In this document: piece after piece, positions 16,229 through 41,619 of the stretch
Position numbering within the stretch: the first letter of the stretch is position 1
How the letters are laid out: every line of letters begins with the position of its first letter
IMG/VR virus record: IMGVR_UViG_3300000439_000009
Span: 1-64,000 of that record
Direction: 5' to 3' (one strand)
DNA: 64,000 bases
Source: a virus
Taxonomy: Duplodnaviria > Caudoviricetes
The notes under the pieces: generated by a model
Database searches by the model: none
What the model was told of the DNA's origin: nothing
What the model saw: only the letters and a program-made list of their open reading frames with translations
Position numbers and translations under genes: made by a program

Positions 16229-16369
16229 ATGATCACTGTAGAATATGTAGAGTATCTAGATTGCCCTACCTGTAAGGTTCCTGTCCTAGTAGATCAGGAA
16301 TACACTTCACCCGCCCGAATTCTGATAGAATGTCGGAATTGTCTAGATGTGAGCGGAATCACACTCTAG
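16229..16369 (+). CDS. Small Zn-finger protein (46 aa)
   Basis: GAAAGGA RBS; CPTC...CRNC. Confidence 0.55.
   Translation: MITVEYVEYLDCPTCKVPVLVDQEYTSPARILIECRNCLDVSGITL
16348..16363. promoter_or_regulatory. CRP/GlxR box 1
   Basis: TGTGA-GCGGAA-TCACA; promoter TTGATT-17-TAGTAT at 16385-16413. Confidence 0.75.
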
Positions 16370-16529
16370 ATACGGCGTGTCGAGTTGATTTTCCCGACTT
16401 AGTGTGATAGTATTCCACTATACAAATTAAATATAGAAAAATCCTAGTGAGCCTCTAGCAATAGAGCAAATAATCTAGGCAAGGAAAATAGTTAGCACAA
16501 GGCTAACGAATTAAAGAAAGGTTCATAAT

Positions 16530-17401
16530 ATGAACACTATAAATAAGAGTAACAGCCTCCATACTGTTCCCGCCAATTCTACTACCTGCTTATTCTGTAA
16601 AGAATCAGTAGTATTTAGTAAAGGTCTGCGTGCTTGGCAGACTACTAACGGACAAGGTAATGTCCGTTGTTACTTCACTGTGGAGGTAAATAACTAATGA
16701 TTATTCTAACCTATATTGTCCGTACTGTTATGGCACTAGCGTTTGTGCCAATGTGTTACCTAGTGTATGCTATGTATCAAGATTTAAAAACTATTGGAAA
16801 GGATAACTAAATGACTATGACTTACTCATTTGAAAAAAAGTTTGACCCTTGGGCTATCGAGCCCGATGTATTTGATCTGCTTATGGCAGAAGAAGCCGAG
16901 GCAGAAAATGCCAAGGTTAATAATGAAATCTCTATTGAAGATATAGAGGATAGTGAAGTAGAGTTTGATGAGGAATTCGATCTCTAATGCTACACTTCAT
17001 AACTAAAGCACACTACTATGCCCCGCACTTAGTACACGCCCCGCATCATATTGCTTGGCTAAAATCCTCAATTAAACTAACCCACCACTACACACGATAG
17101 GAATTAAATAAATGATGAGCCGTAAAGACTACATAAATGTAGCCGATATTCTAAACGAAAACAAAAATCGAATTGACTCAGAAGTTTTTCACGATCTAGT
17201 AATTGACTTCTCGGATTTCTTTTTTGCAGATAATCCCAACTTCTCGCCAAATCGTTTTGAATTGGCTTGCTATGGAAATGATGAGGGAGGGGATGTAAAG
17301 TAATGGAAGACATTCTCGGATTCTCAAATGCAATCGAGCTGGATCACTTAAATGATGAACAGTTAAAAATCGTTGAAGATATTTTCAAAGATTTTAAATA
17401 A
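16530..17401 (+). CDS. Run of six small early genes (16530..16697, 16697..16810, 16811..16987, 16987..17100, 17112..17303, 17303..17401)
   Basis: Mostly TAATG-coupled ORFs, several with RBSs; 16811..16987 is strongly acidic; 16697..16810 is hydrophobic. Confidence 0.6.
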
Positions 17402-17503
17402 ATAAAAAATGCTCTGAAGTAGGTATAAAATACTTACTTCAGGGCAGGGGCGCGGCCCGATTTGTACCCTTTGTTACGATATGTCCGAATTTCTCCCGAG
17501 TTT

Positions 17504-17519
17504 TGTGAATTTAATCACA
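17504..17519. promoter_or_regulatory. CRP/GlxR box 2
   Basis: TGTGA-ATTTAA-TCACA; promoter TTGATA-17-GATAAT at 17561-17589. Confidence 0.75.
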
Positions 17520-17622
17520 TAGTCTGAGCGTCTCACTATTTAAGATACTCCCGAGTATACTTGATAGTAGCGATATTTTGTGAGATAATACTATTATTAG
17601 AAAATAAAGAAAGGTGGTCAAA

Positions 17623-17817
17623 ATGACTACACTAAATAAAGTAAATATCGGAAAAACCCTTGGAATTTCCGCTAAATTAGAAAATCAAATCGTTCACGAA
17701 TTTAACAATGGTGGATGTACTTCTTCTTATGGCTTATCTACGCCTCAGCGTATAGCCTTATTAAAAATCCTATTGGGTGGAAATGCCCCTAAGTGTGAGT
17801 GTATTCTCTGCCTCTAA
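17623..17817 (+). CDS. Hypothetical early protein
   Basis: GAAAGGTGG RBS; C-terminal CECILC. Confidence 0.6.
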   Translation: MTTLNKVNIGKTLGISAKLENQIVHEFNNGGCTSSYGLSTPQRIALLKILLGGNAPKCECILCL

Positions 17818-17833
17818 AGCTTTCCCCGCCCAA

Positions 17834-17855
17834 TGTCAGTGGGCTATGCTATAAT
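17834..17855 (+). promoter_or_regulatory. PafBC-type (RecA-NDp) promoter 1
   Basis: TGTCAGTG-GGCTATGC-TATAAT. Confidence 0.8.
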
Positions 17856-17886
17856 AAATCCGTTAAACAAAAGAAAGGAAGTTAAA

Positions 17887-18442
17887 ATGACTTCACTAAA
17901 AATAAATTGCCAAGAGTGTGGCAAATCCTGCGGAGAGATTTCCGTATATGACGCTCCTTATACTGGGGCAACTACTTGCTGGGAATGCACTTTTAAAAAT
18001 TGCGATCTCTGCTATGGTCAAGGTATCACTGGCTGGGTTAGCCCTGATGGTGATTTTGATTTTGATTATTGCGAATGCAACCCACTTTGCCTAACACTAG
18101 AGGAGGTCAGATAATGACTAATAAAACTACTTTTGAAGTTGCTTGCTTATACTATGAAATTTGTGGTGCAAGCCAAACTTTTGACTCTGCTGAAGAGTAT
18201 GACATCTATGGCGATGACTATGTCTGCCCTGAATGCTATGACCAACAAGAAATGGGAATGTATGGGTGGGCAGACTCAAGCGATGCCTTTCCAATGTCTC
18301 TAGAATATGACGAAGGGTGATATATATGAATCTAGACGAATTTAAAACTTATGTCCAAAACAAGCGTGAGGAATCACGCCTTAAAGGAATGTCAGTGCTA
18401 TCTGCTACAATAACAACCTCAAACCCGAAAGAAGGAAAATAA
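17887..18442 (+). CDS. Three small early genes (17887..18114 Cys-rich, 18114..18320 Cys-rich acidic, 18326..18442)
   Basis: RBSs GAAAGGA and GGAGG; CxxC motifs. Confidence 0.65.
18390..18411 (+). promoter_or_regulatory. PafBC-type promoter 2
   Basis: TGTCAGTG-CTATCTGC-TACAAT. Confidence 0.8.
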
Positions 18443-18443
18443 T

Positions 18444-19265
18444 ATGAAAATGCACGAACTCGATACAACAAACTGGAATGCTTATCCTTTCACAGTTAAT
18501 GGAATTAATTATGTCTCCAAGGTAAAGCCTGATTCTACAATGGCTATGCGAATTTCTCGTGTGCCTGCTCAGATCTTTATTTCTATGAATGAAGATTGTG
18601 TCCGAGAGTTAATCGGTAATGTAACTTCTCCGTCTCTATTAGTTGCAAAACTCTATGAGGTAAATGAAAATGCTAGCGAAGCCGTTATCGAAATTGTCTG
18701 ATAAAGTCCGCCGTATACAGGAGTTAAGGCGTAGCAATTCTGCTACGCCCATCCGCAACAAGAAAAAATATACCCGTAAAACAAAATACAAAAAGGAATA
18801 CTAATATGTCAAATATCTCTACCGCCCTTGCTATCCAAGAAGCCTGCTCTAATGCTGTTTATGCATATGAGTCAATGGAAGTTGCTGCAGAAATTGCACA
18901 ACAAACTGATTTTAATCCTGCCGTCTTGCAATTGTTAATGAAGTACACTGCAATTTTAACTGCAGGCGTTGCAACTAATATGACACAGGTTCTGATGAGT
19001 GAATCTGATTTTAATCATATGATGTCAGAAATGCGTGAACTCGGAGCATTCGAAGGGATCGAAGATGAAAACTAAACTACAGGGCCAAAACATTTTTACA
19101 GAAATTATTTCTGATTATCTTGGCGTAACAATGGACGTTGCATTAATTGTACAAGATGAAATTGATGAAGGTGATTATTTAGATTGGTCCGAAGCATCCA
19201 TTGAAGAAATTGAATTTGCTGCAATGTTAGCTTTTGAAAATTTAAATGTAGATCATAAATTTTAG
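18444..19265 (+). CDS. Four small early genes (18444..18701, 18694..18804, 18806..19075, 19065..19265)
   Basis: Closely coupled ORFs, several with RBSs. Confidence 0.65.
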
Positions 19266-19408
19266 CTGCGACGGGTAGAGAGAATGCAATGGGTCCAGGG
19301 TGGGCCCATTGTTTAAATATGCAAAGCAATGCATAAAGATGCAGGGGCCGCGCCCCGTCAAGCCGACACGCCGTTACGAATGGTCAAAAAAAACTCTGAC
19401 CAGTCAAA

Positions 19409-19424
19409 TGTGATGTGATTCACA
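19409..19424. promoter_or_regulatory. CRP/GlxR box 3
   Basis: TGTGA-TGTGAT-TCACA. Confidence 0.75.
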
Positions 19425-19473
19425 CAACCTGAGCGTCTCATATGCTGGAATTACTGGCTAGTAGGTAGAAAAA

Positions 19474-19495
19474 TGTCGGTGGTGTCGTGTATAAT
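19474..19495 (+). promoter_or_regulatory. PafBC-type promoter 3
   Basis: TGTCGGTG-GTGTCGTG-TATAAT. Confidence 0.8.
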
Positions 19496-19531
19496 TCCAA
19501 CTATTAGAAACAAAGAAAGAAGGTAGCACTT

Positions 19532-20577
19532 ATGCTAATCTCACAAGCCCTAGAAGGCAAATATGTAAAGTCCTCAAAAGGACAAGGCATAATCCAATAT
19601 GCGGATTTCCGTAGAGATATGGAACACTCAACACCCGAAGGTTATCTTGCGTTTGCTTGCAAGGTTCGCCCTACTTATAATCCATCTGTGCATAGATTTA
19701 TTCCAGAAGATTTTTGGACAACAGTTTATGTAGGCATTGACTCAGAATTGGTGGACTAATATGACTATTAAACTTGGTGGGCTAGGGCAGACTATTTCTG
19801 CCTATTGCCCAGTATGCTCAGAAAAGATGACCCATATGTGTATTGCTACACTTGGTGGATTTTCTACTAAAGGTACTATTCGCTATGCGTGGGAATGTAA
19901 TGCTTGCGAATTATCTCTAAAGTCTGACTCAACAGGCTATGCTCACTTACTAACAGAAATGGCTTACTATGCTTAATGAATTAGATAAATTGTGGGAAGA
20001 CTATAAAGAAGCCACTTGGAATACAATGTCGGTGGCTCCTGCTACAATATGGGAAACAAAGGAGAATGACTAATGTATAAACTCACTACCGCCTATGATG
20101 GACAAGCCCCGCATCATACTATCCAATTAGCCGATGCACTCGAAGCGTTTAACTCTTTCGCTAGATGTGTAGACTGGGGGTTCGCTAATGAATATGCGAC
20201 CTATAATCTATCTATGCCAGATGGCAAAATGTATACAAAGAACTTCTATCGTCCGAAAGGTAAATAATTAAATGGGAATAAATATGGCAACAGAACTAGC
20301 AGATGGAACACTTGGATTAGATATGGAAAGTGCTATTGCTATGCACTTGCGTGTTAATCACTATCCTCCCGTACCGACTTCTATGGTGCAGCCTTGCATT
20401 GATGCTATTGATGCATATTGGGAAGAAGACTTGGATCGTAATATCGAATTGCCCGAAGGCGTACTATGGCGAGGAGAAACTTATGCCCCCGCTTATGCAA
20501 TTATCGAAAGTCATCATCTCCAAGCTTGGTGCTCAGAAGATGAGTACCTTAATGAAGTAGACCCAGAGGACTACTAA
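19532..20577 (+). CDS. Five small early genes (19532..19759, 19761..19976, 19969..20073, 20073..20267, 20272..20577)
   Basis: Closely coupled ORFs, several with RBSs. Confidence 0.65.
20027..20048 (+). promoter_or_regulatory. PafBC-type promoter 4
   Basis: TGTCGGTG-GCTCCTGC-TACAAT. Confidence 0.8.
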
Positions 20578-20594
20578 ACTAAATATAATTGTCG

Positions 20595-20610
20595 TGTGAT
20601 GTAACTCACA
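20595..20610. promoter_or_regulatory. CRP/GlxR box 4
   Basis: TGTGA-TGTAAC-TCACA; promoter TGGACA-18-TAAAAT at 20632-20661. Confidence 0.75.
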
Positions 20611-20695
20611 CACGACACGCCCATAGCCAGTTGGACAAAGGTTGGCTGGCTATGGTAAAATACCACCTATAACAACAACAGAAAAGGAAAAAACA

Positions 20696-20860
20696 ATGAC
20701 AATCGGAACAAACACATATCAGGTAGGCGACCTCTTTACCACACAGAAGTCAAAGGTAACTGGCGTTATCAAGGCTATCGAGCCTATCAGCGACACAATG
20801 ACTCGTGTCTTGCTTGATGTAGACGGCGTAGAGCGTTTTACAACAGTTACACTTGCTTAA
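20696..20860 (+). CDS. Small SH3/KOW-like beta protein, paralogue A
   Basis: TYQVGDLFTT...VTG.I...PIS...TRV shared with 21440..21610. Confidence 0.7.
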   Translation: MTIGTNTYQVGDLFTTQKSKVTGVIKAIEPISDTMTRVLLDVDGVERFTTVTLA

Positions 20861-20888
20861 TTAAATAAGTATCGGCTACCCCCACCAA

Positions 20889-20910
20889 TGTCGGTGGGGG
20901 GTGCTATAAT
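20889..20910 (+). promoter_or_regulatory. PafBC-type promoter 5 (overlaps a hairpin)
   Basis: TGTCGGTG-GGGGGTGC-TATAAT; accccccacc...ggtggggggt inverted repeat. Confidence 0.8.
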
Positions 20911-20951
20911 AATCTCTCAAACAACAAACCCGAATAGAAAGTAGAAAACAA

Positions 20952-21368
20952 ATGGCTAGAGCAATCTCCGTTAAAGTAGCAACACCAAAAGTAATTGCTG
21001 CACTAGAATCAAAGTTAGCAGAACTAGAGGCTAAACTTGCAACATCAACTGCAAACGAGGAAGCATACCAAACTGCTTACAAGCAATATCAGACACAGTT
21101 ACAGAACTATTGTGTTGCAAATATCTCACAGGCAACTAACTTCCGTGTATCACACCGAGCATATAATAGTCTAGTGAACATTGACTATGATGTTCCAACT
21201 AACTTGGCTGGATTCCCAGTAGAGCCAAAGCGTGATTTCGAGGTTGTGTATGAACACACAATTACTTCTGCAAGAGAAGAAATCACCAATGCACTTAACA
21301 TCTTGCGTATGACCGACGAGGAATATGTTTCTGCCTCAACTATGAAGTCAATCGCTTCATACCTCTAA
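20952..21368 (+). CDS. Hypothetical early protein
   Basis: 138-aa ORF directly after promoter. Confidence 0.75.
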   Translation: MARAISVKVATPKVIAALESKLAELEAKLATSTANEEAYQTAYKQYQTQLQNYCVANISQATNFRVSHRAYNSLVNIDYDVPTNLAGFPVEPKRDFEVVYEHTITSAREEITNALNILRMTDEEYVSASTMKSIASYL

Positions 21369-21439
21369 ATAAGTAACGACCTGAGCCAAGTCGCTAAACT
21401 GGCTCACACTATAACCCGAATATAGAAAAGGAAAAAACA

Positions 21440-21610
21440 ATGACACTACAAGGATACACATATCAGATAGGTGATCTATTCACAACATCTCGCACAGGTG
21501 TTACAGGTCGCATCACAAAGTTTGCACCAATCTCAAATAAAGTAACACGAGTTCAGTTGCAATTAGCAAATGGCGCAAAGCGTTTTGCAATGGTAAAAAC
21601 TTCTGCGTAA
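21440..21610 (+). CDS. Small SH3/KOW-like beta protein, paralogue B (56 aa)
   Basis: MTLQGYTYQIGDLFTTSRTGVTG...; same agaaaaggaaaaaacaATG leader as 20696. Confidence 0.75.
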   Translation: MTLQGYTYQIGDLFTTSRTGVTGRITKFAPISNKVTRVQLQLANGAKRFAMVKTSA

Positions 21611-21821
21611 ATAAATAATTAGCGGGTCGTGAGTGATAACAGGTAAGTGTCTAAGTAGCCTTAGACCACCCGCTTAATTTTAATTTGACAAAATGTGCAG
21701 CTGGGGGCGCGGCCCGCCCGAAATGTCCGTTTTACGAAGACACTCCCAAATCTCTGAGTTTGACAATGACCAGTCAAACATTGTATACTTCTCCGATGTC
21801 CATAATAATCATAGTGCCCCT

Positions 21822-21837
21822 TGTGATGTTAATCACA
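21822..21837. promoter_or_regulatory. CRP/GlxR box 5
   Basis: TGTGA-TGTTAA-TCACA. Confidence 0.75.
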
Positions 21838-21896
21838 CCCATTGTCTTAGTTGTCGGATTTGTCGCTTTTGTTAAGACTCTCCGTATTAAATAGAT

Positions 21897-21926
21897 TTGA
21901 CTAATGTCGGTGGGTTATGCTAGAAT
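21897..21926 (+). promoter_or_regulatory. PafBC-type promoter 6 with additional -35
   Basis: TTGACT-AA-TGTCGGTG-GGTTATGC-TAGAAT. Confidence 0.8.
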
Positions 21927-21955
21927 AAGGCTTCAACAACAGAAAGAAGGTTCAC

Positions 21956-22990
21956 ATGAACAACACCGTTCATAAGTCCGAAGTAGAGAATGGTTCTGTA
22001 TCATTCGCTCTTGTGGATTCCCGCTCTAATCCTGCATGGCACTCTTATGCAAATAAGATTTTCGATGCAGATACAGAAACCCCAACAGTATCAGAAATTA
22101 TGGATGCTGCTAAACTATCTAATTGGAATGTACGCCTTGAGCCTATCTCCGAATTAGTCCCCGACTATAAGATGGTTACAGAATCTTATCTTGTCGTGCG
22201 TGATAACCCTTACACCGACGGGCAGAAAGATGTTCTCGCCACAGTAGGTTCACGCTATAAAGAAGTGCAGAATGAAGATTTGTTTGCATTCGCACAGAAT
22301 CTTCATGACTCTAATCCAGAAGTCAAAATTGACTCTGCTGGTTCATTCAAGAATGGTCGTGTAGTTTATGGCTCATGGTCTATTCCTAACCAGTTAGTTC
22401 TTGATCCATCTGGTGCTAATGATATAACTAATCTTTATTTAGTTGTTCACACTTCACACGATGGTTCTGTCGCTATTCAAGCAGGTATCACGCCTGTGCG
22501 TGTTAAGTGCCAAAATACACTTAATTTCGCTATGCGTCGTGCTAAGCAATCTTTCAAGATTCGCCACACCGCTACTGTTGATGGCAAGATCGCTGCTGCT
22601 CGTGAGGCTCTAGGTATGTCGGTTGCATACTTCGATGAGTTCTCTAAGCAGGCTAACGAATTGTTCACTCGTGAAGTAACGAATGCACAATTCAGCAACA
22701 TCATCAACACTCTTTACCCTAAGCCAGAAGAAGATAAAAAGGGTGCTATCACTAAGTGGGAAAATAAAGTTGTCCTGCTTGATGAGTTGTACCATAACTC
22801 TCCTACTAATGCTAACATCAAGGGTACAGCATGGGGCGTTGTTAATGCTCTAACTGAGCGTCTTGATTACTTCCGCACTGCTCGTAAAGGTTCTAACGAA
22901 TCTCTCGTTTATTCTGCTTCAGGATTTGATCCTGTTATCACGGCAGAAAAAAATAAAATTGTTAAGCAAGTGTTATCACTAACCGCTTAA
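21956..22990 (+). CDS. DUF932 / TIGR03299-like phage-plasmid protein
   Basis: PAWH, VGSRYKEVQNEDLF, SHDGS, TPVRVKCQNTL, IRHT, GTAWGVVNALTE motifs. Confidence 0.85.
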   Translation: MNNTVHKSEVENGSVSFALVDSRSNPAWHSYANKIFDADTETPTVSEIMDAAKLSNWNVRLEPISELVPDYKMVTESYLVVRDNPYTDGQKDVLATVGSRYKEVQNEDLFAFAQNLHDSNPEVKIDSAGSFKNGRVVYGSWSIPNQLVLDPSGANDITNLYLVVHTSHDGSVAIQAGITPVRVKCQNTLNFAMRRAKQSFKIRHTATVDGKIAAAREALGMSVAYFDEFSKQANELFTREVTNAQFSNIINTLYPKPEEDKKGAITKWENKVVLLDELYHNSPTNANIKGTAWGVVNALTERLDYFRTARKGSNESLVYSASGFDPVITAEKNKIVKQVLSLTA

Positions 22991-22996
22991 TAAATC

Positions 22997-23018
22997 GTGA
23001 GGGGCGAAAGCCCCTCAC
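22997..23018 (+). terminator. GNRA hairpin after DUF932 gene
   Basis: gtgaggggc-gaaa-gcccctcac. Confidence 0.6.
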
Positions 23019-23025
23019 CTCTCTT

Positions 23026-23099
23026 GATTCTATAGATCAATTGGTTAGATCGCTACCCTGTCACGGTAGAGGTTGCGGGTTCAAGTCCCGTTAGAATCG
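23026..23099 (+). tRNA. tRNA-Asp(GUC), copy in early region
   Basis: Acceptor GATTCTA/TAGAATC, anticodon arm CTACC-ctGTCac-GGTAG, T-arm GCGGG-TTCAAGT-CCCGT. Confidence 0.92.
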
Positions 23100-23100
23100 C

Positions 23101-23208
23101 ATGGAAAATAAAAAAGTTGTAATATGTCCAAAGTGCAAAGCTGAAATCCAGGTGCGATCAAACTTTGCACACGACACGCTGAATAATCACTTGACAAAAT
23201 GTAAGTGA
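23101..23208 (+). CDS. Tiny Zn-finger-like ORF (35 aa)
   Basis: CPKC...H...H...C; starts immediately after the tRNA. Confidence 0.4.
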   Translation: MENKKVVICPKCKAEIQVRSNFAHDTLNNHLTKCK

Positions 23209-23221
23209 TGGGGGCGCGGGG

Positions 23222-23237
23222 TGTGAGTAAAATCACA
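23222..23237. promoter_or_regulatory. CRP/GlxR box 6
   Basis: TGTGA-GTAAAA-TCACA. Confidence 0.75.
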
Positions 23238-23324
23238 ATTACGAAGGGGTATAAAATCTCCCTAAAGTTAGACATTAAGATGATATATGTCAAACCCTTT
23301 ACGATTAAACAAGTATAGGCTATG

Positions 23325-23354
23325 TGGACAAATGTCAGTGGGGTATGCTAGAAT
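23325..23354 (+). promoter_or_regulatory. PafBC-type promoter 7 with additional -35
   Basis: TGGACA-AA-TGTCAGTG-GGGTATGC-TAGAAT. Confidence 0.8.
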
Positions 23355-23385
23355 ATGCCCTATAACTACGAACAAAGGAGATATA

Positions 23386-24102
23386 ATGCCAAACTGGGTT
23401 TATAATGGTCTTACTATTGAAGGTAACCCTGAATCTGTAACTAAATTAGTTAATCAGATGAATCAACCATATACACGTCATTTTGAAGATGCGTGGGATA
23501 TGAAGACTAAGACTATGGGTCCACAGGATGTTACTTATTCTAATCCTGTATTTGCTTTCTGGAATATCATTAGTCCCACCGACCTTGATGCATATGTAAA
23601 GCAACCTGACCATTCCCTGCCTATTCAAGAAGCATTGCTATTTAAAGGCGACCATTGGTACGACTGGAATGTACGTAACTGGGGCACCAAGTGGGATGTA
23701 GCCGTATCTGATGACAACGAGCATCCTGAGACATATATGGAGGGCCCTACAGAAAACGGTGAGAATCTAGTAGTCTACTATAACTTTAATACTGCTTGGT
23801 CTCGCCCAATTTCTGCTTTAGAGAATTTATCTGCACAGTACCCTGACCTTCTACTTACTTTATCTTATGAAGAAGAGACAGGCTGGGGTGGGGAATGTGA
23901 ATTCCTGCGTGGTAAATATATTGCTGGTTTAGAATATGAAACCAAGTGCAATGAATGTGATGCATATGACTGTATGGAGTATTGCGAAGATTGCGAAAAT
24001 GATGTATGCTCTGTTTGTAGTTTTGGGGCAGAGGAAGAGTGTCAGTCCCATATGGTAGAATCAGAACTTCCGCCTAAAGTACAAGTTACGAAGAATGCAT
24101 AA
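23386..24102 (+). CDS. YubB/DUF1281 ferredoxin-like domain protein
   Basis: MPNWVYN, WYDWNVRNWGTKWD, FNTAWS, YEEETGWGG; AAGGAG RBS. Confidence 0.8.
   Translation: MPNWVYNGLTIEGNPESVTKLVNQMNQPYTRHFEDAWDMKTKTMGPQDVTYSNPVFAFWNIISPTDLDAYVKQPDHSLPIQEALLFKGDHWYDWNVRNWGTKWDVAVSDDNEHPETYMEGPTENGENLVVYYNFNTAWSRPISALENLSAQYPDLLLTLSYEEETGWGGECEFLRGKYIAGLEYETKCNECDAYDCMEYCEDCENDVCSVCSFGAEEECQSHMVESELPPKVQVTKNA
24040..24061 (+). promoter_or_regulatory. PafBC-type promoter, one-mismatch copy
   Basis: TGTCAGTC-CCATATGG-TAGAAT. Confidence 0.55.
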
Positions 24103-24731
24103 TGGAAAAGCTAGTTTCAACTAAGTATACCTTTGTATGCGATCCTGATTATTGTGATTGTTTAATTGAACTTACTACATCGGATAAGTTTGGATTTCCC
24201 GCCACTGTGACAAACATCACATGCCCTTGCGGGCGTGTCTTGGAACCTTTGTCAGTGGTAGATGCTACAATACTCCCTATAACCGAACAGAAAGAAGAAA
24301 CAATGGAAACCATGCAGGAGACCTACAACCCAAATGCTTTGGTCACTTACAAGAAGATTGTAGATGGTCAGGCTGAATATGTTACTACCAAGGTAACAGA
24401 ACTTGACTGGGCTATGGAACGTGCCCGTCAAGATGCAAAGATGGCTATGATTAGTTATGAGAAGGAAGTAGCACTCGAAGAACTAATTAAAGAGAACTAC
24501 CTTGAATCTGGTGATCAGGGAACTCTTCTGCAGATTGCAGAACTCTTTAGTATCTCATTAACTAAAGATGTTGAGTTTGTTGCAACTATCGAAATCTCAG
24601 GAACTGTTACAGTTGATCTAACTGATGAGGATGCTTTGCAGACTCTATTGGAAAATAGCGTACATGTTTCTTCATATGATGGAGATCTAGATGTATCTGA
24701 TTATGTATTAGTCAACTATGAGGAGCGTTAA
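24102..24731 (+). CDS. Hypothetical acidic protein; Cys-rich N-terminus and probable internal start at 24303
   Basis: Internal promoter and purine-rich RBS precede in-frame ATG 24303. Confidence 0.7.
   Translation: MEKLVSTKYTFVCDPDYCDCLIELTTSDKFGFPATVTNITCPCGRVLEPLSVVDATILPITEQKEETMETMQETYNPNALVTYKKIVDGQAEYVTTKVTELDWAMERARQDAKMAMISYEKEVALEELIKENYLESGDQGTLLQIAELFSISLTKDVEFVATIEISGTVTVDLTDEDALQTLLENSVHVSSYDGDLDVSDYVLVNYEER
24206..24271 (+). promoter_or_regulatory. Intragenic cassette: CRP box 7, GGCGTGTC box, PafBC-type promoter 8
   Basis: TGTGA-CAAACA-TCACA (24206), GGCGTGTC (24232), TGTCAGTG-GTAGATGC-TACAAT (24250-24271). Confidence 0.8.
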
Positions 24732-25657
24732 TGGCTATTGTTACAATTGATGCTGGCTCCCGCCAAACGGCGGGAGCATTAATGGTAGAGGCCTGGAAGC
24801 ACGGGGTAGAGGTAGAAATGCTACATGATAACCAGATGGAACTAACATGTGCATATGATGACAAGATGAATAAGGTCTTAAATAAATATAAGGGTGTCAA
24901 AGTCCTACACACAGAACTAATTAAGGAGATATTTGAATGACACTTATAGAACTAATTAATTTAATCTATACCGATATTGACGGGCATGCAAATGAATGTG
25001 ACTGCAACATATGTATAACTATGGATATTGTACAGGAATATATCCAGCGATATCACCTTGACAAGGTGGATGCTGGTGAGGAGATATTTAAATGAATGAT
25101 CCACTAATTGAATATATCAATTTACATATAATTAGTTTAAAACAAGATCTTGAGGATGCTCAAAACAATGTCCCTATTTCAGAAGATGAGTACTATGAAT
25201 CAGATTCTTATTATAACGGGTCTATAGAGACTGCTGAGCATATCCTTGACATGGCCCGTCAATTTGACGAGCAGTCCCTTTATATGGTAGGATAACGCCC
25301 ATGGATATAACAACACAGGAACGTATAGATATGCTAGTGGATGTAGAGATTAGTTTAACTAATTACTCTAATTCAAAAGCCAATTACCGTCCCGCTTTTG
25401 GTGATATTGCCGCTTATCATACATTGTTAAGTTTGTATGAGATGGACTATAGCGATATGGAGCCTGAGTACTTATGGCGCAAGAAGCCTGATGAGATCAT
25501 GACGGTAGTCATTGATGAGAATCATATCTTCTCACTTGAATACGGGTGGGATGACTTATATGAATCAGTCCGTGAATGGATTGTAGAAAAGGGTTTCGTC
25601 GTACATTGCGACGAATTAGATGAAGAAGAATACCAACAACTAATGGAGGCAAAATAA
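24731..25657 (+). CDS. Small early genes (24731..24940, 25092..25295, 25301..25657; the latter two acidic)
   Basis: ORF track; TTGACG-18-TAGGAT promoter at 25264-25293. Confidence 0.65.
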
Positions 25658-25658
25658 T

Positions 25659-25856
25659 ATGGCAACAAAGGCAAAGTCAACAGCAGTACAAACAACACCA
25701 GCACAGTCCCCACGTGAATTCCTAGTTTCAAAGGGCTTTACACCAGGGGCTCGTGGTCGCTTTAGCAAAGACATGGTCCTGGCCCTACAGGCTGCAGGTT
25801 ATCCTGTCAAGGCTCCAAAGGAGCGTTCAAAGGTGGTTTCAACCCCTTTAGCGTAA
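25659..25856 (+). CDS. Lsr2 C-terminal DNA-binding-domain-like protein
   Basis: PREFLVSKGFTPGARGRFSKDMVLAL matches the Lsr2 RE(W)...G..V..RGR AT-hook pattern. Confidence 0.65.
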   Translation: MATKAKSTAVQTTPAQSPREFLVSKGFTPGARGRFSKDMVLALQAAGYPVKAPKERSKVVSTPLA

Positions 25857-26059
25857 ACCCTTACCAAGATGTGCCCCCAGTCAGAGTCTCTCGTACACTT
25901 TACGGTATGGACAATCTGGGGGTACGCATTGGGTACGTAATGTGCGGGGATTGCGAAAAGCACATGTCAAATTGTAATTGTGAAGGTGGAGTAAAGGCTC
26001 CATCTCAAATAGTGAGAGCACTAGACAAACTCGTTAGAATATGATAGGATAGGGGACTT

Positions 26060-26765
26060 ATGCAAAGTATAAACCAAAAGTATGTTAAACAGACTAATGA
26101 TATGTTACTTAACGCAGAGTCTAATCTAGAACTAATTGCTACTCAAATACACAGATTACCTGTTAGAGAGCAGCATAGATATCTTAGACTTGTTTTAAGT
26201 TATATAGATGTATTGTCTAAAGCCAAGTTGGCTACTATGCGTGATTCTATTGCGCTATGCAAGGAACTAATGGAAGTAATTAACCTATACTATGAGGAGA
26301 CAGAATAATGGGAGCAAGAACTAATTATACAATCATCACTACATCTAACCCCGCCCAAAACCTAAACGTTTATGCACACTGGGATGGCACAGAGTCAGTG
26401 GCGATTATGCAGGCTGCTATCAAGGCCGCTATGCCCCGTATCAAGACACGTGATACATCCTATGCCACTCGTATCCTAGTGGACCAGCTGACCAAACACG
26501 GGCGGGATTCTGAGACAGGCTATGGTATCTACATTGGAGAAGAAGTAGATCATGAAGAGCAATATGAATATAAGGAGATTAACTTAATTAATAATACAGT
26601 TACAGTTGGCTCTATGACATTCGAACTTAATCAATTTGTTGAGGTGCTAGTATGAGCCATAACCATAGTTGGGAATGCTCAGATGTCCCCGCAAATTATT
26701 ACTGTGCTTGTGGATCAGAGGGATACTATAACTCAGTTGACAAGACTATAAATGCAGTGGTATAA
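26060..26765 (+). CDS. Last early genes (26060..26308, 26308..26655, 26652..26765)
   Basis: Coupled ORFs; TAGACA...TAGGAT promoter at 26022-26050. Confidence 0.65.
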
Positions 26766-26849
26766 TTATACAACGAGATAGGGCGTTCAGGCAAGTCTGC
26801 CAAGTCCATTATAACCTCCACAGGTTCGGGTCCTGTGGAGGTTTTTTTT
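26737..26849 (+). ncRNA. Candidate ~75-nt small RNA with own promoter and terminator
   Basis: TTGACA-18-TATAAT (26737-26766), no ORF, strong terminator 26813-26849. Confidence 0.45.
26813..26849 (+). terminator. Intrinsic terminator closing the early region
   Basis: aacctccacagg-ttcgggt-cctgtggaggtt followed by a T run. Confidence 0.85.
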
Positions 26850-26949
26850 CTTACGAGTTTTTTTTTAAAATGGGATTACGATGGGGGCTAAAAATCTCCA
26901 CGACTTTTATTGGCGGGACATTACGAAGAAGCTTAAAATCTCCCAACAA

Positions 26950-27420
26950 GTACTGGTAATATACCCTATATAAAACATATCAATAATCAAACAATATGTA
27001 TAATAAACTAAAGAAACATAAACACTTATGGACATTTATATAGACATTCTGTCTATTTTTGTCCATTTTTGTGTAGCATATAAAATATGACCACATATGA
27101 CCACATAAACACTTGACACATATAATTTTATGTGTACATGTGGATATACCTGTGGATAACTATATTACGATTTGACACGCCTTATATTATATGGTTTATA
27201 TCATGATATCTATATCTGTGGATAACCTGTGTATAAATTGTGGATAAGGGTATATGTATTCTCCACTATACTCCACTATGCTCCACTTCTATAGGGTCTA
27301 TATGGCTCTATGAAGGGTTATCTATGGGTATTGGGGACGGGACTATGCACAATCCGTACAATAATTGATAGCCCTTATATGCTCGATAGAGCGATATATG
27401 GGTCTACCACAACTTGAACA
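26950..27420. other. oriC-like element: DnaA-box cluster, AT-rich tract, 10-bp direct repeats
   Basis: TGTGGATAA at 27151, 27217, 27239; TGTGTATAA at 27228; near-match at 27139; ATATGACCAC x2 (27085); CTCCACT x3 (27261); no ORF. Confidence 0.7.
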
Positions 27421-35808: not shown

Positions 35809-36078
35809 TTAATTAAGAATACTTTTCTGTGTAGGGACATATTTTATTCCTTCTATTTCACATCGAACCCCAAAGGATTCAATTAACTGTCTGCAAAGTA
35901 ACAAGTACTCCATGATATCTGCTCTCTTATCAATTTCGTATTGCATTATGTTTTCTTCGTATACAGTTAAAGCTAGATAATTTGGCCTGGCTCTTACATC
36001 CATTCTAAGATCTTTAACAGGCATCTTAACTTTTCTAATGGCTTTAGCCATAGATACGTTATAAAATATTTTTTCCAT
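35809..36078 (-). CDS. Hypothetical protein
   Basis: Coupled to whiB. Confidence 0.6.
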   Translation of the reverse strand: MEKIFYNVSMAKAIRKVKMPVKDLRMDVRARPNYLALTVYEENIMQYEIDKRADIMEYLLLCRQLIESFGVRCEIEGIKYVPTQKSILN

Positions 36079-36379
36079 GAATTTTCTTTAGAGTATCCCA
36101 AGTTTCTTTAGTCTTATGTGCATTATTTTGTTTATCTACACGACCAAGATCCATAAAGATCCCGCCACGTACGCCAAATTCTTTCATGGAAACACCCTCT
36201 TTGTAACATTGCTTAATTACTGGACAACTTAAACATACTTCATCAGCAGTTTGTGCCGTAATCTTATCATTTTCGTAATCATCATAAAACCAATTAATGC
36301 TCATGCCTTTGCATGCAGCAAGATGATACCACTTTAGGTCTTCTTCATCAATACCTAATTCTTTAAGAATGCTTGACAT
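36059..36379 (-). CDS. whiB: WhiB-family Fe-S transcription regulator
   Basis: W...AAC...F...VCLSCPVIKQC...FGVRGG. Confidence 0.88.
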   Translation of the reverse strand: MSSILKELGIDEEDLKWYHLAACKGMSINWFYDDYENDKITAQTADEVCLSCPVIKQCYKEGVSMKEFGVRGGIFMDLGRVDKQNNAHKTKETWDTLKKIHGKNIL

Positions 36380-36596: not shown

Positions 36597-36721
36597 ATCT
36601 GTCTTGGTAACTTGCTTTCTCTTTTTGTTTTTTGTTCTTTTAACATGTCTTTAATTTCTGTTAAAAGGCTTACTATCTGAGTAAGCTGAACTTCTATTGT
36701 ATCATTTTTAGGCATTATCTG

Positions 36722-37093
36722 TCAAGCACTTTCTACTAAAAGATATGGGATTCCATATTCTTTTAATACCTTCATTGAAGATTTTGTTCTAGCACAACCC
36801 GTTGAAAATATAATTGCATACTCTAAGCCCGATTCAATCACAGCCATATCATTGATGACTGGAGACTTCCCACGATGCAATTCTTCTTTTAATTTAAAAT
36901 TCTTTTGTTTTAAAAACTTTTCAGTTTTTCCCACATATTCCGTGATCATATTTTCTGCACCCTTTAGCCCAGTATGGACTAATAAAATGTTATCATGACC
37001 TAGCTCATGCGCTTCTTGAATGAATACGGTCATATTGCGTATAAGATCTGAGTAATCTGTCCAGTCTTTACTGCCGAATATTCCAACCTTCAT
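36722..37093 (-). CDS. SLOG/YspA-like (DUF2493) protein
   Basis: MKVGIFGSKDWTDY...LVHTG.KGAE. Confidence 0.6.
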   Translation of the reverse strand: MKVGIFGSKDWTDYSDLIRNMTVFIQEAHELGHDNILLVHTGLKGAENMITEYVGKTEKFLKQKNFKLKEELHRGKSPVINDMAVIESGLEYAIIFSTGCARTKSSMKVLKEYGIPYLLVESA

Positions 37094-40488: not shown

Positions 40489-40524
40489 AGTATATCCTTT
40501 TATGTTAGTAGTTACAAGTTTTAG

Positions 40525-40597
40525 TGTCCCCAGCAGGTTTCGATCCTGCGACCCGTTGCTTAAAAGGCAACTGCTCTACCAACTGAGCTATAGGGAC
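40525..40597 (-). tRNA. tRNA-Lys(UUU)
   Basis: Cloverleaf; GTTGC-ctTTTaa-GCAAC. Confidence 0.9.
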
Positions 40598-40598
40598 A

Positions 40599-40674
40599 TG
40601 GTACCCCAAGTTGGATTCGAACCAACGCTGTATGGATTTTAAGTCCACTATCTCTACCACTGGATTACTGGGGC
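40599..40674 (-). tRNA. tRNA-Leu(UAA), short variable arm, CCA encoded
   Basis: GTGGA-ctTAAaa-TCCAT. Confidence 0.9.
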
Positions 40675-40678
40675 TAAG

Positions 40679-40751
40679 CCCCCTCGGCACGATTCGAACG
40701 TGCGACGCAGGCCTTAGAAGAGCCTCGCTCTATCCTCTGAGCTACGAAGGG
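40679..40751 (-). tRNA. tRNA-Arg(UCU)
   Basis: AGGCT-ctTCTaa-GGCCT. Confidence 0.9.
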
Positions 40752-40758
40752 AAACCTA

Positions 40759-41283
40759 TTAAAGTGTTGCGCCACCAATTGGTCGTGCACACGCTGTCTT
40801 TTCACCAGTTTGCAATGCATCTAGAATACGCAATGTTTCTTCTGGATTACGTCCTGTGTCAAGATTATTAATTGTTACATGCTGAATAACATCATTATCA
40901 TCAACAATAAATGTCGCACGAAGTGCTACTCCGCCAGATGTTAAAATGTTTAACTGCTTTGCCAAGCCAAGTTCAAGATTCTGATCTGCAAACATAGTTG
41001 ATCTAATATTAGTTAATTGTGGGTCAGCTTGCTTCCATGCAATCTTAACATATTCATTATCAACTGATCCAATTAAAAGCTTTGCATTTCTTAAGCCAAA
41101 CTGTTCATGCAAAGAATCATAGCCAACAATTTCTGTTGGGCAAACAAATGTGAAGTCTTTTGGATAAAAAACAATAACTTTCCATTTGCGTCCAAATGTA
41201 TTGTTAGTTATTTCAAAAAAAGAATTATCTGCTCTGACTCCAGTAATCTTAAAGTCAGGCAACTTATTTCCTACTGTGTACAT
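40759..41283 (-). CDS. ahpC: Peroxiredoxin AhpC
   Basis: FYPKDFTFVCPTEI, ALRATFIVD, GRNPEETLRILDALQ; true start MYTVG after GGAG RBS. Confidence 0.93.
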   Translation of the reverse strand: MYTVGNKLPDFKITGVRADNSFFEITNNTFGRKWKVIVFYPKDFTFVCPTEIVGYDSLHEQFGLRNAKLLIGSVDNEYVKIAWKQADPQLTNIRSTMFADQNLELGLAKQLNILTSGGVALRATFIVDDNDVIQHVTINNLDTGRNPEETLRILDALQTGEKTACARPIGGATL

Positions 41284-41315
41284 ACTACTCCTTATATAAG
41301 AAGGCTTGCGCCTTG

Positions 41316-41389
41316 CGATCTCAACGGGACTTGAACCCGCAACCTCCACCGTGACAGGGTGGCGATCTAACCAATTGATCTATGAGATC
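41316..41389 (-). tRNA. tRNA-Asp(GUC), cluster copy
   Basis: CCACC-ctGTCac-GGTGG. Confidence 0.92.
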
Positions 41390-41393
41390 CTAG

Positions 41394-41467
41394 TGGAACA
41401 GGTCAGACTTGAACTGACGATTACCGAATTATGAGTTCGGGGCTTTGACCAACTAAGCTACTGTTCC
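41394..41467 (-). tRNA. tRNA-CAU (Ile2 or elongator Met)
   Basis: CCGAA-ctCATaa-TTCGG; paired 1-72, so not initiator. Confidence 0.85.
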
Positions 41468-41468
41468 T

Positions 41469-41545
41469 TGGTAGAATGTTTGCGAATTGAACGCAACTCT
41501 AGGGAGGATATAAGCCACCATCTGACCACCAGCCAGCCACATTCC
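41469..41545 (-). tRNA. Atypical tRNA-Ile(UAU)
   Basis: Acceptor GGAATGT/ACATTCT-A-CCA; T-arm TTGCG-TTCAATT-CGCAA; anticodon arm GGTGG-ctTATat-CCTCC with a U-U mismatch. Confidence 0.6.
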
Positions 41546-41546
41546 G

Positions 41547-41619
41547 CTGGGGAAACAGGGCTCGAACCTGTGACCTAGGCATTAACAGTGCCCCGCTCTG
41601 CCGACTGAGCTATTCCCCA
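41547..41619 (-). tRNA. tRNA-Asn(GUU)
   Basis: GGGCA-ctGTTaa-TGCCT. Confidence 0.9.

What the first reader, a model, noticed from the sequence alone, without database searches (positions are those of the whole stretch)
16374..27181. WhiA-type GACAC(GCC) boxes at fixed promoter positions, with a phage-encoded WhiB
Seen: GACACGCC or its complement at 16374, 19365, 20614, 24232 and 27174, and GACACGC at 23173. At 16374 and 24232 the geometry is identical in otherwise unrelated sequence: 26 bp after the CRP box start and 34 bp before the -10. Established: WhiA binds GACAC and co-activates cell-division promoters with WhiB from just upstream of the -35. The phage carries whiB (36059..36379). Inference: host WhiA plus host or phage WhiB provides a cell-cycle input, and later-made phage WhiB could feed back on early promoters and on the origin-like region.
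Basis: partly seen in the sequence, partly recalled or inferred. Interest (0 to 1): 0.7.

Follow-up and report, generated by a model that had tools for sequence, protein, structure and literature searches.

The report
Host WhiA-type boxes on phage promoters
A large family of uncultured lake phages that infect actinobacteria has built the exact DNA site of the host cell-division regulator WhiA into its early promoters, just upstream of the -35, so early phage genes are probably wired to a host growth and division signal, though no binding has been tested.

Summary
GACACGCC occurs exactly five times, plus GACACGCT once, at the stated coordinates. All sites are intergenic, and the stated geometry is exact. 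In this genome alone the count is modest: the 8-mer ranks about 60th-80th, and GACAC alone is not enriched. Across 44 dereplicated related phages, though, the box core GCGTGTCG is the most over-represented of all 8-mers (177 vs 4). It is strand-biased and lies 2-3 bp upstream of TTGAC-N17-TAnnnT in more than 60 different promoters. The family consensus C-GACACGCC-G equals the published M. tuberculosis WhiA ChIP-seq and in-vitro consensus at 10 of 10 positions. No WhiA-like, sigma-region-4-like or Cro/CI-type protein is detectable in the phage. Host WhiA binding is therefore the best reading (about 0.55), but it is untested and the host lineage is unknown. The phage WhiB-like gene is real and conserved, but it is not in the WhiB/WhiB2 clade. 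Cultured Streptomyces phages with the same Wbl lack the boxes. The Wbl operon has its own plain consensus promoter, so the proposed feedback loop is speculation. The origin-region site is the weakest match. The scan has flagged the same motif in at least 10 other phage genomes. I found no published report.

The parts
16348..16363 (.). CRP/GlxR-type palindrome TGTGAGCGGAATCACA of early promoter P1
16373..16382 (-). WhiA-type box, full 10-mer CGACACGCCG on the minus strand (reads CGGCGTGTCG in the direction of transcription); the 8-mer core is 16374-16381
16385..16413 (+). P1 core promoter: -35 TTGATT (16385-16390), 17-bp spacer, extended -10 TGaTAGTAT (-10 hexamer 16408-16413). The -35 starts 3 bp after the 8-mer core.
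   Evidence: the same spacing occurs in 63-67 distinct promoters of relatives
19364..19373 (+). WhiA-type box, full 10-mer CGACACGCCG. It is preceded by GTCAAgc and a GC hairpin (GGGGCCGCGCCCC), so it is the composite box-nn-TTGAC read backwards. It lies 36 nt upstream of the P3 CRP-type box (19409-19424).
20613..20621 (+). WhiA-type box CGACACGCC, 3 nt after the P4 CRP-type box (20595-20610) and 9 nt upstream of TTGGAC (20631-20636); putative -10 TAAAAT at 20656. This P4-type cassette is conserved in relatives.
23172..23179 (+). Near-box CGACACGC(T), a 7 of 8 match, between tRNA-Asp (23026-23100) and the P6 CRP-type box (23222-23237)
24206..24221 (.). CRP/GlxR-type palindrome TGTGACAAACATCACA of promoter P7
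24232..24239 (-). WhiA-type box (GACACGCC on the minus strand). Its flanks depart from the extended consensus (A on the 5' side, C on the 3' side).
24250..24271 (+). P7 core promoter of RecA-NDp (PafBC) type, TGTCAGTG-N8-TACAAT, starting 10 nt after the box. The same offset (9-11 nt) occurs in 20 promoters of relatives.
27174..27181 (+). GACACGCC inside the ORF-free convergent gap that holds DnaA-box-like repeats (27151, 27217, 27228, 27239). It is the weakest match to the extended consensus (T on both flanks).
36059..36379 (-). Phage WhiB-like (Wbl) protein, 106 aa, with four Cys (C23, C49, C52, C58) and GVRGG in place of GVWGG
36696..36725 (-). Consensus-like sigma-A promoter TTGACA-18-TACAAT heading the Wbl operon, with no box, CRP or NDp element

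Best explanation
The boxes are binding sites for the host's WhiA, built into the early promoters of a large lineage of low-GC freshwater actinobacterial phages. The functional unit is TAC-GGCGTGTC-G, then 2 nt, then TTGAC(A). In this unit the WhiA C-terminal helix-turn-helix domain would read GACAC(GCC) on the template strand, in the major groove next to the one where sigma-A region 4 reads the -35. The two sites share GACA, which gives a TGTC-N5-GACA quasi-palindrome. A Wbl protein bound to sigma-A region 4 would bridge to WhiA as in the S. venezuelae sepX complex, raising or gating early transcription. That Wbl could be the host's WhiB2 type or possibly the phage's own.

Together with the CRP/GlxR-type, RecA-NDp (PafBC)-type and DnaA-type elements in the same cassettes, this would tie early phage expression to host physiological state, here growth and division.

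Shown: the element, its conservation, its fixed position and orientation bias, and its identity to the WhiA consensus. Inferred: that WhiA binds it, the sign of the effect, and the involvement of any Wbl.
For: (1) Motif identity. The family consensus from 273 distinct contexts is (T)(A)C-GGCGTGTC-G. Its reverse complement, CGACACGCCG, equals the M. tuberculosis WhiA consensus: GACACGCC by ChIP-seq and by in-vitro IDAP-seq with pure WhiA, and CGACACGCCGn in an earlier dataset (PMC13473873). The element TCGACACGC is required for WhiB2-dependent activation of mcdR (PMC9040748).
(2) Unbiased enrichment. It is the top 8-mer across 44 relatives, with 6-9 copies per complete genome confined to one 5-8 kb early region, against 0-2 for the reversed control.
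(3) Position. 67 of 275 boxes are followed by TTGnnn at +2/+3 and TAnnnT after 17 bp, against 1.9% of random positions, and 65 of the 67 lie on the transcribed strand. Only 11% lie in ORFs of at least 90 aa, against 49% of the sequence.
(4) Host context. The boxes co-localise with other actinobacterial host-factor motifs: a CRP-type box nearby in about 22% against 2.2%, a DnaA box in 14% against 1.9%, and RecA-NDp at a fixed offset. In Mtb the WhiA peak lies 42 bp upstream of the RecA-NDp promoter recA P1, which matches P7.
(5) No phage-encoded mimic was found. There is no WhiA HTH, sigma70 r4 or r4_2, or HTH_3 in six frames, and no DNA-binding Pfam domain in 30 early ORFs.
(6) An actinobacterial host is indicated. 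Wbl is found only in actinobacteria and their phages (PMC6282962, PMC13013590), and all 142 phage hits to the Wbl are actinophages.
(7) The composite recurs in at least 119 further IMG/VR stretches. Of the 80 fetched, 69 share proteins with this phage at 31-66% identity.
Against: No binding or expression data exist. The host lineage is unknown, so its WhiA and that protein's specificity were not examined. The exact 10-mer is not enriched in the smallest low-GC actinobacterial genomes sampled (0-1 copies, all inside ORFs), although these may not be the host clade.

The promoters already have near-consensus -35 and -10 elements with 17-bp spacing, so an activator may be unnecessary, and WhiA can also repress (PMC3781837). 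The box lies only 2-3 bp from the -35, in the orientation opposite to sepX. This is where WhiB contacts the minor groove in the sepX complex, and steric compatibility was not tested.

About 38% of antisense-oriented boxes also carry TTGA at +2/+3 but have no -10, so TTGAC may be part of a longer site for some other protein. Most early ORFs are ORFans that could hide a novel DNA-binding protein.
Confidence: 0.55

Rival explanations
1. The box is the operator of a phage-encoded, probably monomeric, site-specific regulator. This could be an early-gene shut-off repressor, or a stoperator-like roadblock comparable to gp71 of cluster A mycobacteriophages. The match to the WhiA consensus would then be coincidence or deliberate mimicry.
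For: The site is asymmetric, 10-12 bp long, present in many copies and orientation-biased (197:77). It abuts or nearly overlaps the -35. Copies also sit just after hairpins at operon ends without a -10, where a roadblock would make sense. Nearly all early ORFs are of unknown function.
Against: No HTH of WhiA, sigma-4, Cro/CI or excisionase type passes threshold anywhere in the phage. A 10 of 10 match to an independently determined host-factor consensus is unlikely by chance (about 1e-6 per motif compared; inference). The sites are confined to the early region rather than spread genome-wide as stoperators are.
Confidence: 0.2
2. The box is read directly by RNA polymerase, with no separate transcription factor. 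It would act as an upstream extension of the -35, recognised by sigma-A region 4 or an alpha C-terminal domain.
For: The distance to TTGAC is very strict (2-3 bp) in 108 of 265 boxes, against 1.2% by chance. The box and the -35 share GACA in inverted orientation (sequence). The WhiA C-terminal domain and sigma-4 recognise near-identical bases (PMC10243135).
Against: More than half of the boxes have no TTGA beside them (157 of 265). Boxes also occur upstream of CRP-type boxes, in either orientation, and next to DnaA boxes. No such sigma-A or alpha element is known in actinobacteria (my knowledge).
Confidence: 0.1
3. The recurrence reflects shared descent and shuffling of mobile promoter cassettes, like the promoter-early stem-loop (PeSL) cassettes of T4-type phages. 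The box would be a hitch-hiking or recombination-guiding sequence rather than a protein site.
For: The early region is a mosaic of hairpin, box, CRP-type box and core promoter modules whose sub-blocks are reshuffled between promoters. Examples are CTGAGCGTCTCA shared by P2 and P3, and AATGTCGGTGG shared by P3 and P5.
Against: The sequence flanking the box is unrelated between P1 and P7 (21 of 83 identical) and across 273 contexts (information content below 0.45 bit outside the box). Selection therefore acts on the box itself. This rival is also not exclusive of a binding function.
Confidence: 0.05

Closest known systems
WhiA/WhiB co-activated sigma-A promoters of Actinobacteria (S. venezuelae sepX complex, PMC10243135; the M. 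tuberculosis WhiA/WhiB2 regulon, PMC13473873; M. smegmatis mcdR, PMC9040748)
   Same: The DNA element is identical (GACAC core, 8-mer GACACGCC, 10-mer CGACACGCCG). It is located just upstream of the -35 of sigma-A-type promoters. It occurs in both orientations. It is associated with a RecA-NDp promoter, as at Mtb recA P1.
   Different: Here the sites are on a phage genome and head early genes of unknown function, rather than cell-division or replication genes. The spacing to the -35 is strict (2-3 bp), whereas it is described as variable in Streptomyces. The template-strand orientation dominates. The core promoters are near-consensus. Binding is untested.
T4 sigma appropriation (AsiA bound to sigma-70 region 4, plus MotA bound to MotA boxes at middle promoters); from my own knowledge, and the analogy is drawn for Wbls in PMC13013590
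   Same: A small phage-encoded protein that binds sigma region 4 (here a Wbl), combined with a sequence-specific factor that reads a box near the -35.
   Different: In T4 both proteins are phage-encoded, and the MotA box replaces the -35. Here the DNA reader would be a host protein, the -35 is intact, and a role for the phage Wbl is unproven. Streptomyces phages with the same Wbl lack the boxes.
Stoperators of cluster A mycobacteriophages (the L5 gp71 repressor); my own knowledge
   Same: Many copies of an asymmetric site of about 13 bp, orientation-biased relative to transcription, in intergenic DNA and at a promoter's -35.
   Different: Stoperators are spread over the whole genome and are bound by a phage HTH repressor of a temperate phage. 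Here the sites are confined to the early region, no repressor-type HTH was found, and the sequence equals a host-factor site.
Host global-regulator sites in phage promoters (for example NtcA and PhoB boxes in cyanophages, or LexA sites in CTX-phi); my own knowledge
   Same: The phage ties its gene expression to a host physiological signal by carrying host transcription-factor sites. In this phage, CRP-type, RecA-NDp-type and DnaA-type elements sit in the same cassettes.
   Different: I found no report of WhiA being used in this way. The density and positional precision of the boxes are also unusually high.

Membership tests
WhiA binding site / WhiA-WhiB dependent promoter | The sequence matches the experimentally defined WhiA motif (GACAC core; Mtb GACACGCC / CGACACGCCGn) | tested here: met
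   The family consensus is C-GACACGCC-G, from 273 contexts, compared with PMC13473873. In the window, 2 of 5 sites are full 10-mers (16373-16382 and 19364-19373).
WhiA binding site / WhiA-WhiB dependent promoter | The site lies in promoter DNA, upstream of the -35 of a sigma-A-type promoter | tested here: met
   P1 and P7 in the window. In relatives, 63-67 distinct promoters have the -35 at +2/+3 and a 17-bp spacer. TSSs are predicted, not mapped.
WhiA binding site / WhiA-WhiB dependent promoter | The site is occupied by WhiA (ChIP, EMSA or footprint) | not testable with these tools
   This needs experiments. There are no data for this uncultured phage or its host.
WhiA binding site / WhiA-WhiB dependent promoter | Transcription depends on WhiA together with a WhiB2-type Wbl | not testable with these tools
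   This needs in-vitro transcription or genetics.
WhiA binding site / WhiA-WhiB dependent promoter | The host encodes WhiA | tested here: inconclusive
   The host could not be identified. The WhiA HTH domain is present in 121 of 201 sampled Actinomycetota, including many 1.3-1.6 Mb genomes. The exact 10-mer is not enriched in the smallest low-GC genomes.
WhiB-like (Wbl) family, ORF 36059-36379 | Pfam PF02467 scores above the gathering threshold, with four Cys in the pattern C-Xn-C-X2-C-X5-C | tested here: met
   38.2 bits against a cut-off of 23.6. C23, C49, C52 and C58 are invariant in 6 family members.
WhiB-like (Wbl) family, ORF 36059-36379 | G[V/I]WGG turn and an aromatic patch for sigma-A region 4 binding (PMC13013590) | tested here: inconclusive
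   AP1 (W17) and AP2-3 (W30, F31, Y32) align with WhiB1 W3, F17 and F18. AP4 is R (GVRGG) in this phage and in two relatives, and W in three others. The published criterion (at least 2 aromatic residues, including AP2-3) is met by sequence alignment only.
WhiB/WhiB2 subfamily (the WhiA partner) | Phylogenetic placement inside the WhiB2 clade | tested here: not met
   FastTree of 9 phage and 27 cellular Wbls: the phage clade (0.93) lies outside the WhiB2 clade (0.94) and outside WhiB1, WhiB3, WhiB4-like and WhiB7. Sven WhiB is only the fifth-best PDB match. Caveats: the alignment is short, and only three reference genomes were used.
WhiB/WhiB2 subfamily (the WhiA partner) | Conservation of the 14 WhiB residues that contact the WhiA N-terminal domain | not testable with these tools
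   The residue list is in supplementary data that are not held. No multimer prediction tool is available.
Stoperator-type phage repressor system | A phage-encoded HTH repressor, with sites spread over the genome | tested here: not met
   No HTH_3 is found, and HTH_17 gives only a sub-threshold match near the structural genes. There is no DNA-binding domain in 30 early ORFs. Sites are confined to the early region. A novel fold cannot be excluded.

The most novel reading that the evidence does not exclude
The phage Wbl is a sigma appropriator. Made from its own consensus promoter at the start of infection, it would occupy sigma-A region 4 in place of the host's WhiB2 and recruit host WhiA to the boxes. 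Phage early promoters would then fire whatever the host's own WhiB2 level. This would be an AsiA/MotA-like takeover assembled from one phage protein and one essential host factor, and it would give a function to the Wbl genes that are among the commonest regulators in actinophages.
Probability: 0.15. Interest if true: 0.85.

Novelty: new variant of a known kind. Interest (0 to 1): 0.66.

Why it matters
WhiA and WhiB2 are essential cell-division and replication regulators in actinobacteria, including M. tuberculosis, and how promoter geometry governs their action is still being worked out. If WhiA binds these boxes, this phage lineage offers three things.

- **A first example.** It would be the first case of phages plugging early genes into the WhiA/WhiB circuit.
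- **A natural promoter set.** The lineage holds more than 60 sequence-diverse promoters with one fixed box-to-(-35) spacing, plus variants with other spacings and orientations. These could be used to test the structural model.
- **A lead on phage Wbl function.** It gives a concrete, testable hypothesis for the long-unexplained role of phage Wbl proteins.

The result also suggests that the extended WhiA motif is conserved from mycobacteria to the low-GC hosts of lake phages. Finally, these phages appear to read several host states at once (cAMP-CRP, DNA damage via PafBC, DnaA, and WhiA).

Tried and rejected
- **Gene calls and DNA similarity.** Megablast of 16-28 kb against cultured phages found nothing.
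- **Host identification failed.** The `genome contigs` scan with the Wbl alignment returned phage contigs mis-binned in MAGs labelled Bacteroidetes, cyanobacterium and Omnitrophota, plus distant Actinomycetota Wbls. Genomes reached this way carry no taxon names.
- **Host-side motif test.** CGACACGCCG in 21 small actinobacterial genomes was uninformative. The apparent enrichment is confined to 78-80% GC genomes and coding DNA, and the two low-GC hits lie inside ORFs.
- **Cultured model.** Stanwilliamsviridae phages with the orthologous Wbl show no box enrichment, so they are not a ready model.
- **Curated families.** NCBIfam has no model matching the phage Wbl.
- **Published geometry.** The sepX promoter sequence, the WhiA-WhiB interface residues and Mtb motif-to-TSS distances are only in figures or supplements that are not held. 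A base-by-base geometric comparison was therefore not possible.
- **Alternative sigma factor.** I rejected the idea that the box is the -35 of an alternative sigma factor, because no conserved -10-like positions follow it at 16-20 bp other than those of the TTGAC promoter.
- **Restriction-modification.** I rejected a restriction-modification or methylation site, because the motif is asymmetric, orientation-biased and limited to promoters.
- **Unpublished genome.** No claim in this report rests on the unpublished genome G006.


Full report
**What the window is.** The window is the first 64 kb of a 106,853-bp IMG/VR virus record that is about 99% complete and about 37% GC. From 13.7 to 26.7 kb it carries small plus-strand genes, almost all of unknown function. 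A convergent ORF-free gap with DnaA-box-like repeats follows at about 26.7-27.3 kb.

**The observation.**
- GACACGCC occurs at exactly the five stated places. That is 5 sites against 0.21 expected, and 0 of 100 shuffles reached 5.
- It occurs nowhere else in the 107-kb genome, and GACACGCT lies at 23173.
- All six sites are intergenic.
- The geometry claim is exact. At 16374 and 24232 the box starts 26 bp after the start of a perfect TGTGA-N6-TCACA palindrome and 34 bp before a -10 (TAGTAT, TACAAT; both with an extended TGn).
- Identity outside the motifs is 21 of 83, which is the random level.

There are two cautions. GACAC alone is not enriched (51 against 66.5 expected). When every 8-mer of the genome is ranked, GACACGCC is only 58th-80th. 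On this genome alone the case therefore rests on position, not count.

**Relatives settle the matter.**
- Using the DUF932 protein (21956-22990) I fetched 50 related loci at 50-99% protein identity. GGCGTGTC/GACACGCC is abundant in them, with up to 9-11 copies in 14-21 kb.
- In an unbiased, strand-specific ranking of all 65,536 8-mers over 44 dereplicated loci (748 kb), the top word is GCGTGTCG (177 against 4.1). GGCGTGTC scores 197 against 10.3 and is present in 42 of 44 loci. The strand ratio is 197:77 in favour of GGCGTGTC on the transcribed strand. The runner-up is TGTCAGTG, the RecA-NDp-like promoter element.
- Five near-complete relatives (105-112 kb) have 6-9 boxes each, almost all inside one 5-8 kb early region. 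The reversed-pattern control gives 0-2.
Of the 80 fetched, 69 share proteins with this phage at only 31-66% identity. Their median GC is 38%, and they hold 382 boxes in 741 kb.

The box is therefore a hallmark of a large, diverse lineage. The window's phage is a box-poor member of it.

**Anatomy.**
- From 273 distinct contexts, the consensus in the direction of transcription is (T)(A)C-GGCGTGTC-G. There is little conservation further out, apart from a following TTGAC.
- Of 275 boxes, 67 are followed by TTGnnn at +2/+3 and by TAnnnT after a 17-bp spacer (64 of the 67). Random positions give 1.9%. Sixty-five of the 67 lie on the transcribed strand.
- Twenty boxes are followed at 9-11 nt by TGTC[AG]GTG-N8-TAnnnT, as at P7.
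- Only 11% of boxes lie in ORFs of at least 90 aa, which make up 49% of the sequence.
- A CRP-type box lies within about 50 nt of 22% of boxes (2.2% at random). A DnaA box lies within 100 nt of 14% (1.9% at random).

**A refinement on orientation.** Boxes in the opposite orientation are mostly the same composite read backwards: [hairpin]-TGTCAA-gc-CGACACGCCG-tttacgg-[CRP box]. The window's site at 19365 is one of these.
- On the transcribed strand, TTGA follows the box at +2/+3 in 80 of 192 boxes, and 56 of those have a -10.
- On the other strand, TTGA follows in 28 of 73 boxes, and only 2 of those have a -10.
- Chance gives 1.2%.

So box-nn-TTGAC is a unit in its own right, a TGTC-N5-GACA quasi-palindrome. 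What the backward-facing copies do at operon ends is unexplained.

**What it matches.**
- In S. venezuelae, WhiA binds the asymmetric GACAC in either orientation, and acts as both activator and repressor (PMC3781837).
- In the sepX cryo-EM complex, WhiB bridges sigma-A region 4 and the WhiA N-terminal domain and contacts the minor groove just upstream of the -35. The WhiA C-terminal domain reads GACAC much as sigma region 4 reads TTGACA. Orientation and spacing vary between promoters (PMC10243135).
- In M. tuberculosis, the primary WhiA motif is the 8-mer GACACGCC, both by ChIP-seq and by in-vitro IDAP-seq with pure protein. The same motif emerges from WhiB2 ChIP, an earlier dataset gave CGACACGCCGn, and the WhiA peak at recA lies 42 bp upstream of the RecA-NDp promoter P1 (PMC13473873).
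- In M. smegmatis, TCGACACGC is required for WhiB2-dependent activation of mcdR (PMC9040748).

The phage family consensus read on the other strand is C-GACACGCC-G, a 10 of 10 match. P7 reproduces the recA P1 arrangement. This identity, not the 5-mer, is the core of the argument.

**Is there a phage-encoded binder instead?**
- Six-frame searches of the whole phage find no WhiA HTH, sigma-70 region 4 or r4_2, or HTH_3.
- They find only a sub-threshold HTH_17 match at about 64 kb, beside the structural genes.
- Thirty early ORFs have no DNA-binding Pfam domain.

This lowers the rival but does not remove it, because the ORFans could hide a new fold.

**The phage Wbl.**
- ORF 36059-36379(-) passes Pfam WhiB and has the four cluster cysteines. 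It keeps aromatic-patch positions AP1 and AP2-3 but has GVRGG instead of GVWGG; three of six family members keep the W (PMC13013590).
- All five complete relatives encode one Wbl.
- It is 45-52% identical to Wbls of the 125-134 kb Streptomyces phages of the family Stanwilliamsviridae, and all 142 phage hits are actinophages. Local synteny is shared (tRNA-Lys, Wbl, tRNA-Ile).
- In a tree with 27 cellular Wbls from three genomes, the phage clade (support 0.93) lies outside the WhiB2/WhiB clade (0.94) and outside WhiB1, WhiB3, WhiB4-like and WhiB7.
- The Stanwilliamsviridae genomes show no box enrichment: 5 against 4, 1 against 3, and 0 against 0.
- The Wbl operon has its own TTGACA-18-TACAAT promoter without any box.

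A role for the phage Wbl at the boxes is therefore possible, but nothing I could compute supports it. The description 'later-made' is not established either.

**The host.** An actinobacterial host is indicated by the Wbl, which is found only in actinobacteria and their phages (PMC6282962, PMC13013590). It is also indicated by the RecA-NDp-type promoters (eight in the window) and by the CRP/GlxR-type boxes (seven perfect). The lineage could not be named. The best 'genome' hits to the Wbl are phage contigs mis-binned in MAGs. WhiA is present in 121 of 201 sampled Actinomycetota, including many streamlined genomes. The exact 10-mer is not enriched in the smallest low-GC genomes, where the only two hits lie inside ORFs. 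I count that result as uninformative, because these may not be the host clade and a small regulon with degenerate sites would not be visible.

**The individual sites.**

| Site | Context | Consensus match and position |
|---|---|---|
| 16373-16382 | P1, consensus sigma-A type | Full 10-mer, canonical promoter position |
| 24232 | P7, RecA-NDp type | Off-consensus flanks, canonical promoter position |
| 19364-19373 | Backward composite after a hairpin | Full 10-mer, 36 nt upstream of the P3 CRP-type box |
| 20613-20621 | P4 cassette, conserved in relatives | Between the CRP-type box and a TTGGAC |
| 23173 | Upstream of P6 | 7 of 8 match |
| 27174 | DnaA-box cluster | Worst flanks (T on both sides); conserved only in relatives at 94-99% identity |

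Box and DnaA-box co-occurrence is nevertheless a family-wide tendency.

**Verdict.** The element is real and its identity with the WhiA site is strong. I put host WhiA binding at about 0.55, a phage-encoded binder at 0.2, direct RNAP recognition at 0.1 and pure cassette ancestry at 0.05. The literature searches found no report of WhiA boxes on phage DNA, and the main survey of phage WhiB genes never mentions WhiA. The scan itself has flagged the same motif with a phage Wbl in at least 10 other phage genomes, and one follow-up reached a similar reading on other DNA. I treat that as recurrence, not as proof.

Noticed in passing
window 19340-19373 and relatives (e.g. L006:2400-2460, L030:4650-4720): The box-nn-TTGAC composite also occurs pointing backwards, directly abutting the GC-rich hairpin that ends the preceding operon, and without a -10 (28 of 73 antisense boxes, of which only 2 have a -10). 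Some relatives have inverted box pairs, GGCGTGTC-N10-GACACGCC, around TTGTCAA. This could be a roadblock, an insulator or an antisense promoter; it is unexplained.
   Followed up: partly
window 17524-17535 and 19429-19440: CTGAGCGTCTCA lies exactly 4 nt after the CRP-type box at P2 and P3, and 'gagcgtctca' recurs after CRP-type boxes in many relatives. This is a further conserved element with no assigned factor.
   Followed up: no
whole genome, e.g. window 6271, 16568, 24197, 24758, 26911, 28916, 36160, 42632, 44337, 53386: TCCCGCCA/TGGCGGGA occurs 17 times against 0.8 expected and is dispersed over the whole genome. It is among the top-ranked 8-mers of this genome and is unexplained.
   Followed up: no
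window 54247 and G000:C1 78604, 81898, 89703, 95494, 99386, 103747, 105188: AGGCGGGG/GGCGGGGA occurs 8 times against about 0.3 expected and is confined to the late (structural) part of the genome. It may be a late promoter or terminator element.
   Followed up: no
relatives L002-L051; window e.g. 16331-16338, 17470-17480: ATGTCCGA / TCGGACAT ('aaatcggacat', 'atgtccgattt') is strongly over-represented in the early regions of relatives (88 against 8.2), on both strands. It is another candidate operator.
   Followed up: no
window 17834, 18390, 19474, 20027, 20889, 21905, 23333, 24250: There are eight TGTC[AG]GTG-N8-TAnnnT (RecA-NDp / PafBC-type) promoters, all on the plus strand of the early region. 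TGTCAGTG is the second most over-represented 8-mer in the family, with extreme strand bias (215 against 2).
   Followed up: partly
L060-L063 (genome contigs): Contigs 62-67% identical in Wbl to this phage, one of them a 109,918-bp contig, sit in public MAGs labelled Bacteroidetes, cyanobacterium, Bacteroidia and Omnitrophota. These are almost certainly phage contigs mis-binned into MAGs, and they would mislead host prediction.
   Followed up: partly
window 23026-23100: A lone tRNA-Asp(gtc) sits inside the early region between the DUF932 operon and promoter cassette P6. A second tRNA-Asp(gtc) lies in the tRNA cluster at 41315-41389.
   Followed up: no
window 36059-36379 and 40524-41619, compared with L057-L059: The Wbl is orthologous to that of Streptomyces Stanwilliamsviridae phages, with shared local synteny (tRNA-Lys(ttt), Wbl, tRNA-Ile(tat)). 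This suggests that the freshwater lineage is a distant low-GC relative of that family.
   Followed up: partly
G000:C1 66720-67100 and 106615-106790 (beyond the window): There are 12-bp tandem repeats (GGTGGGAAGAAT-like) at two places. They probably encode the Pro-Phe repeat proteins noted by another finding on this genome.
   Followed up: no
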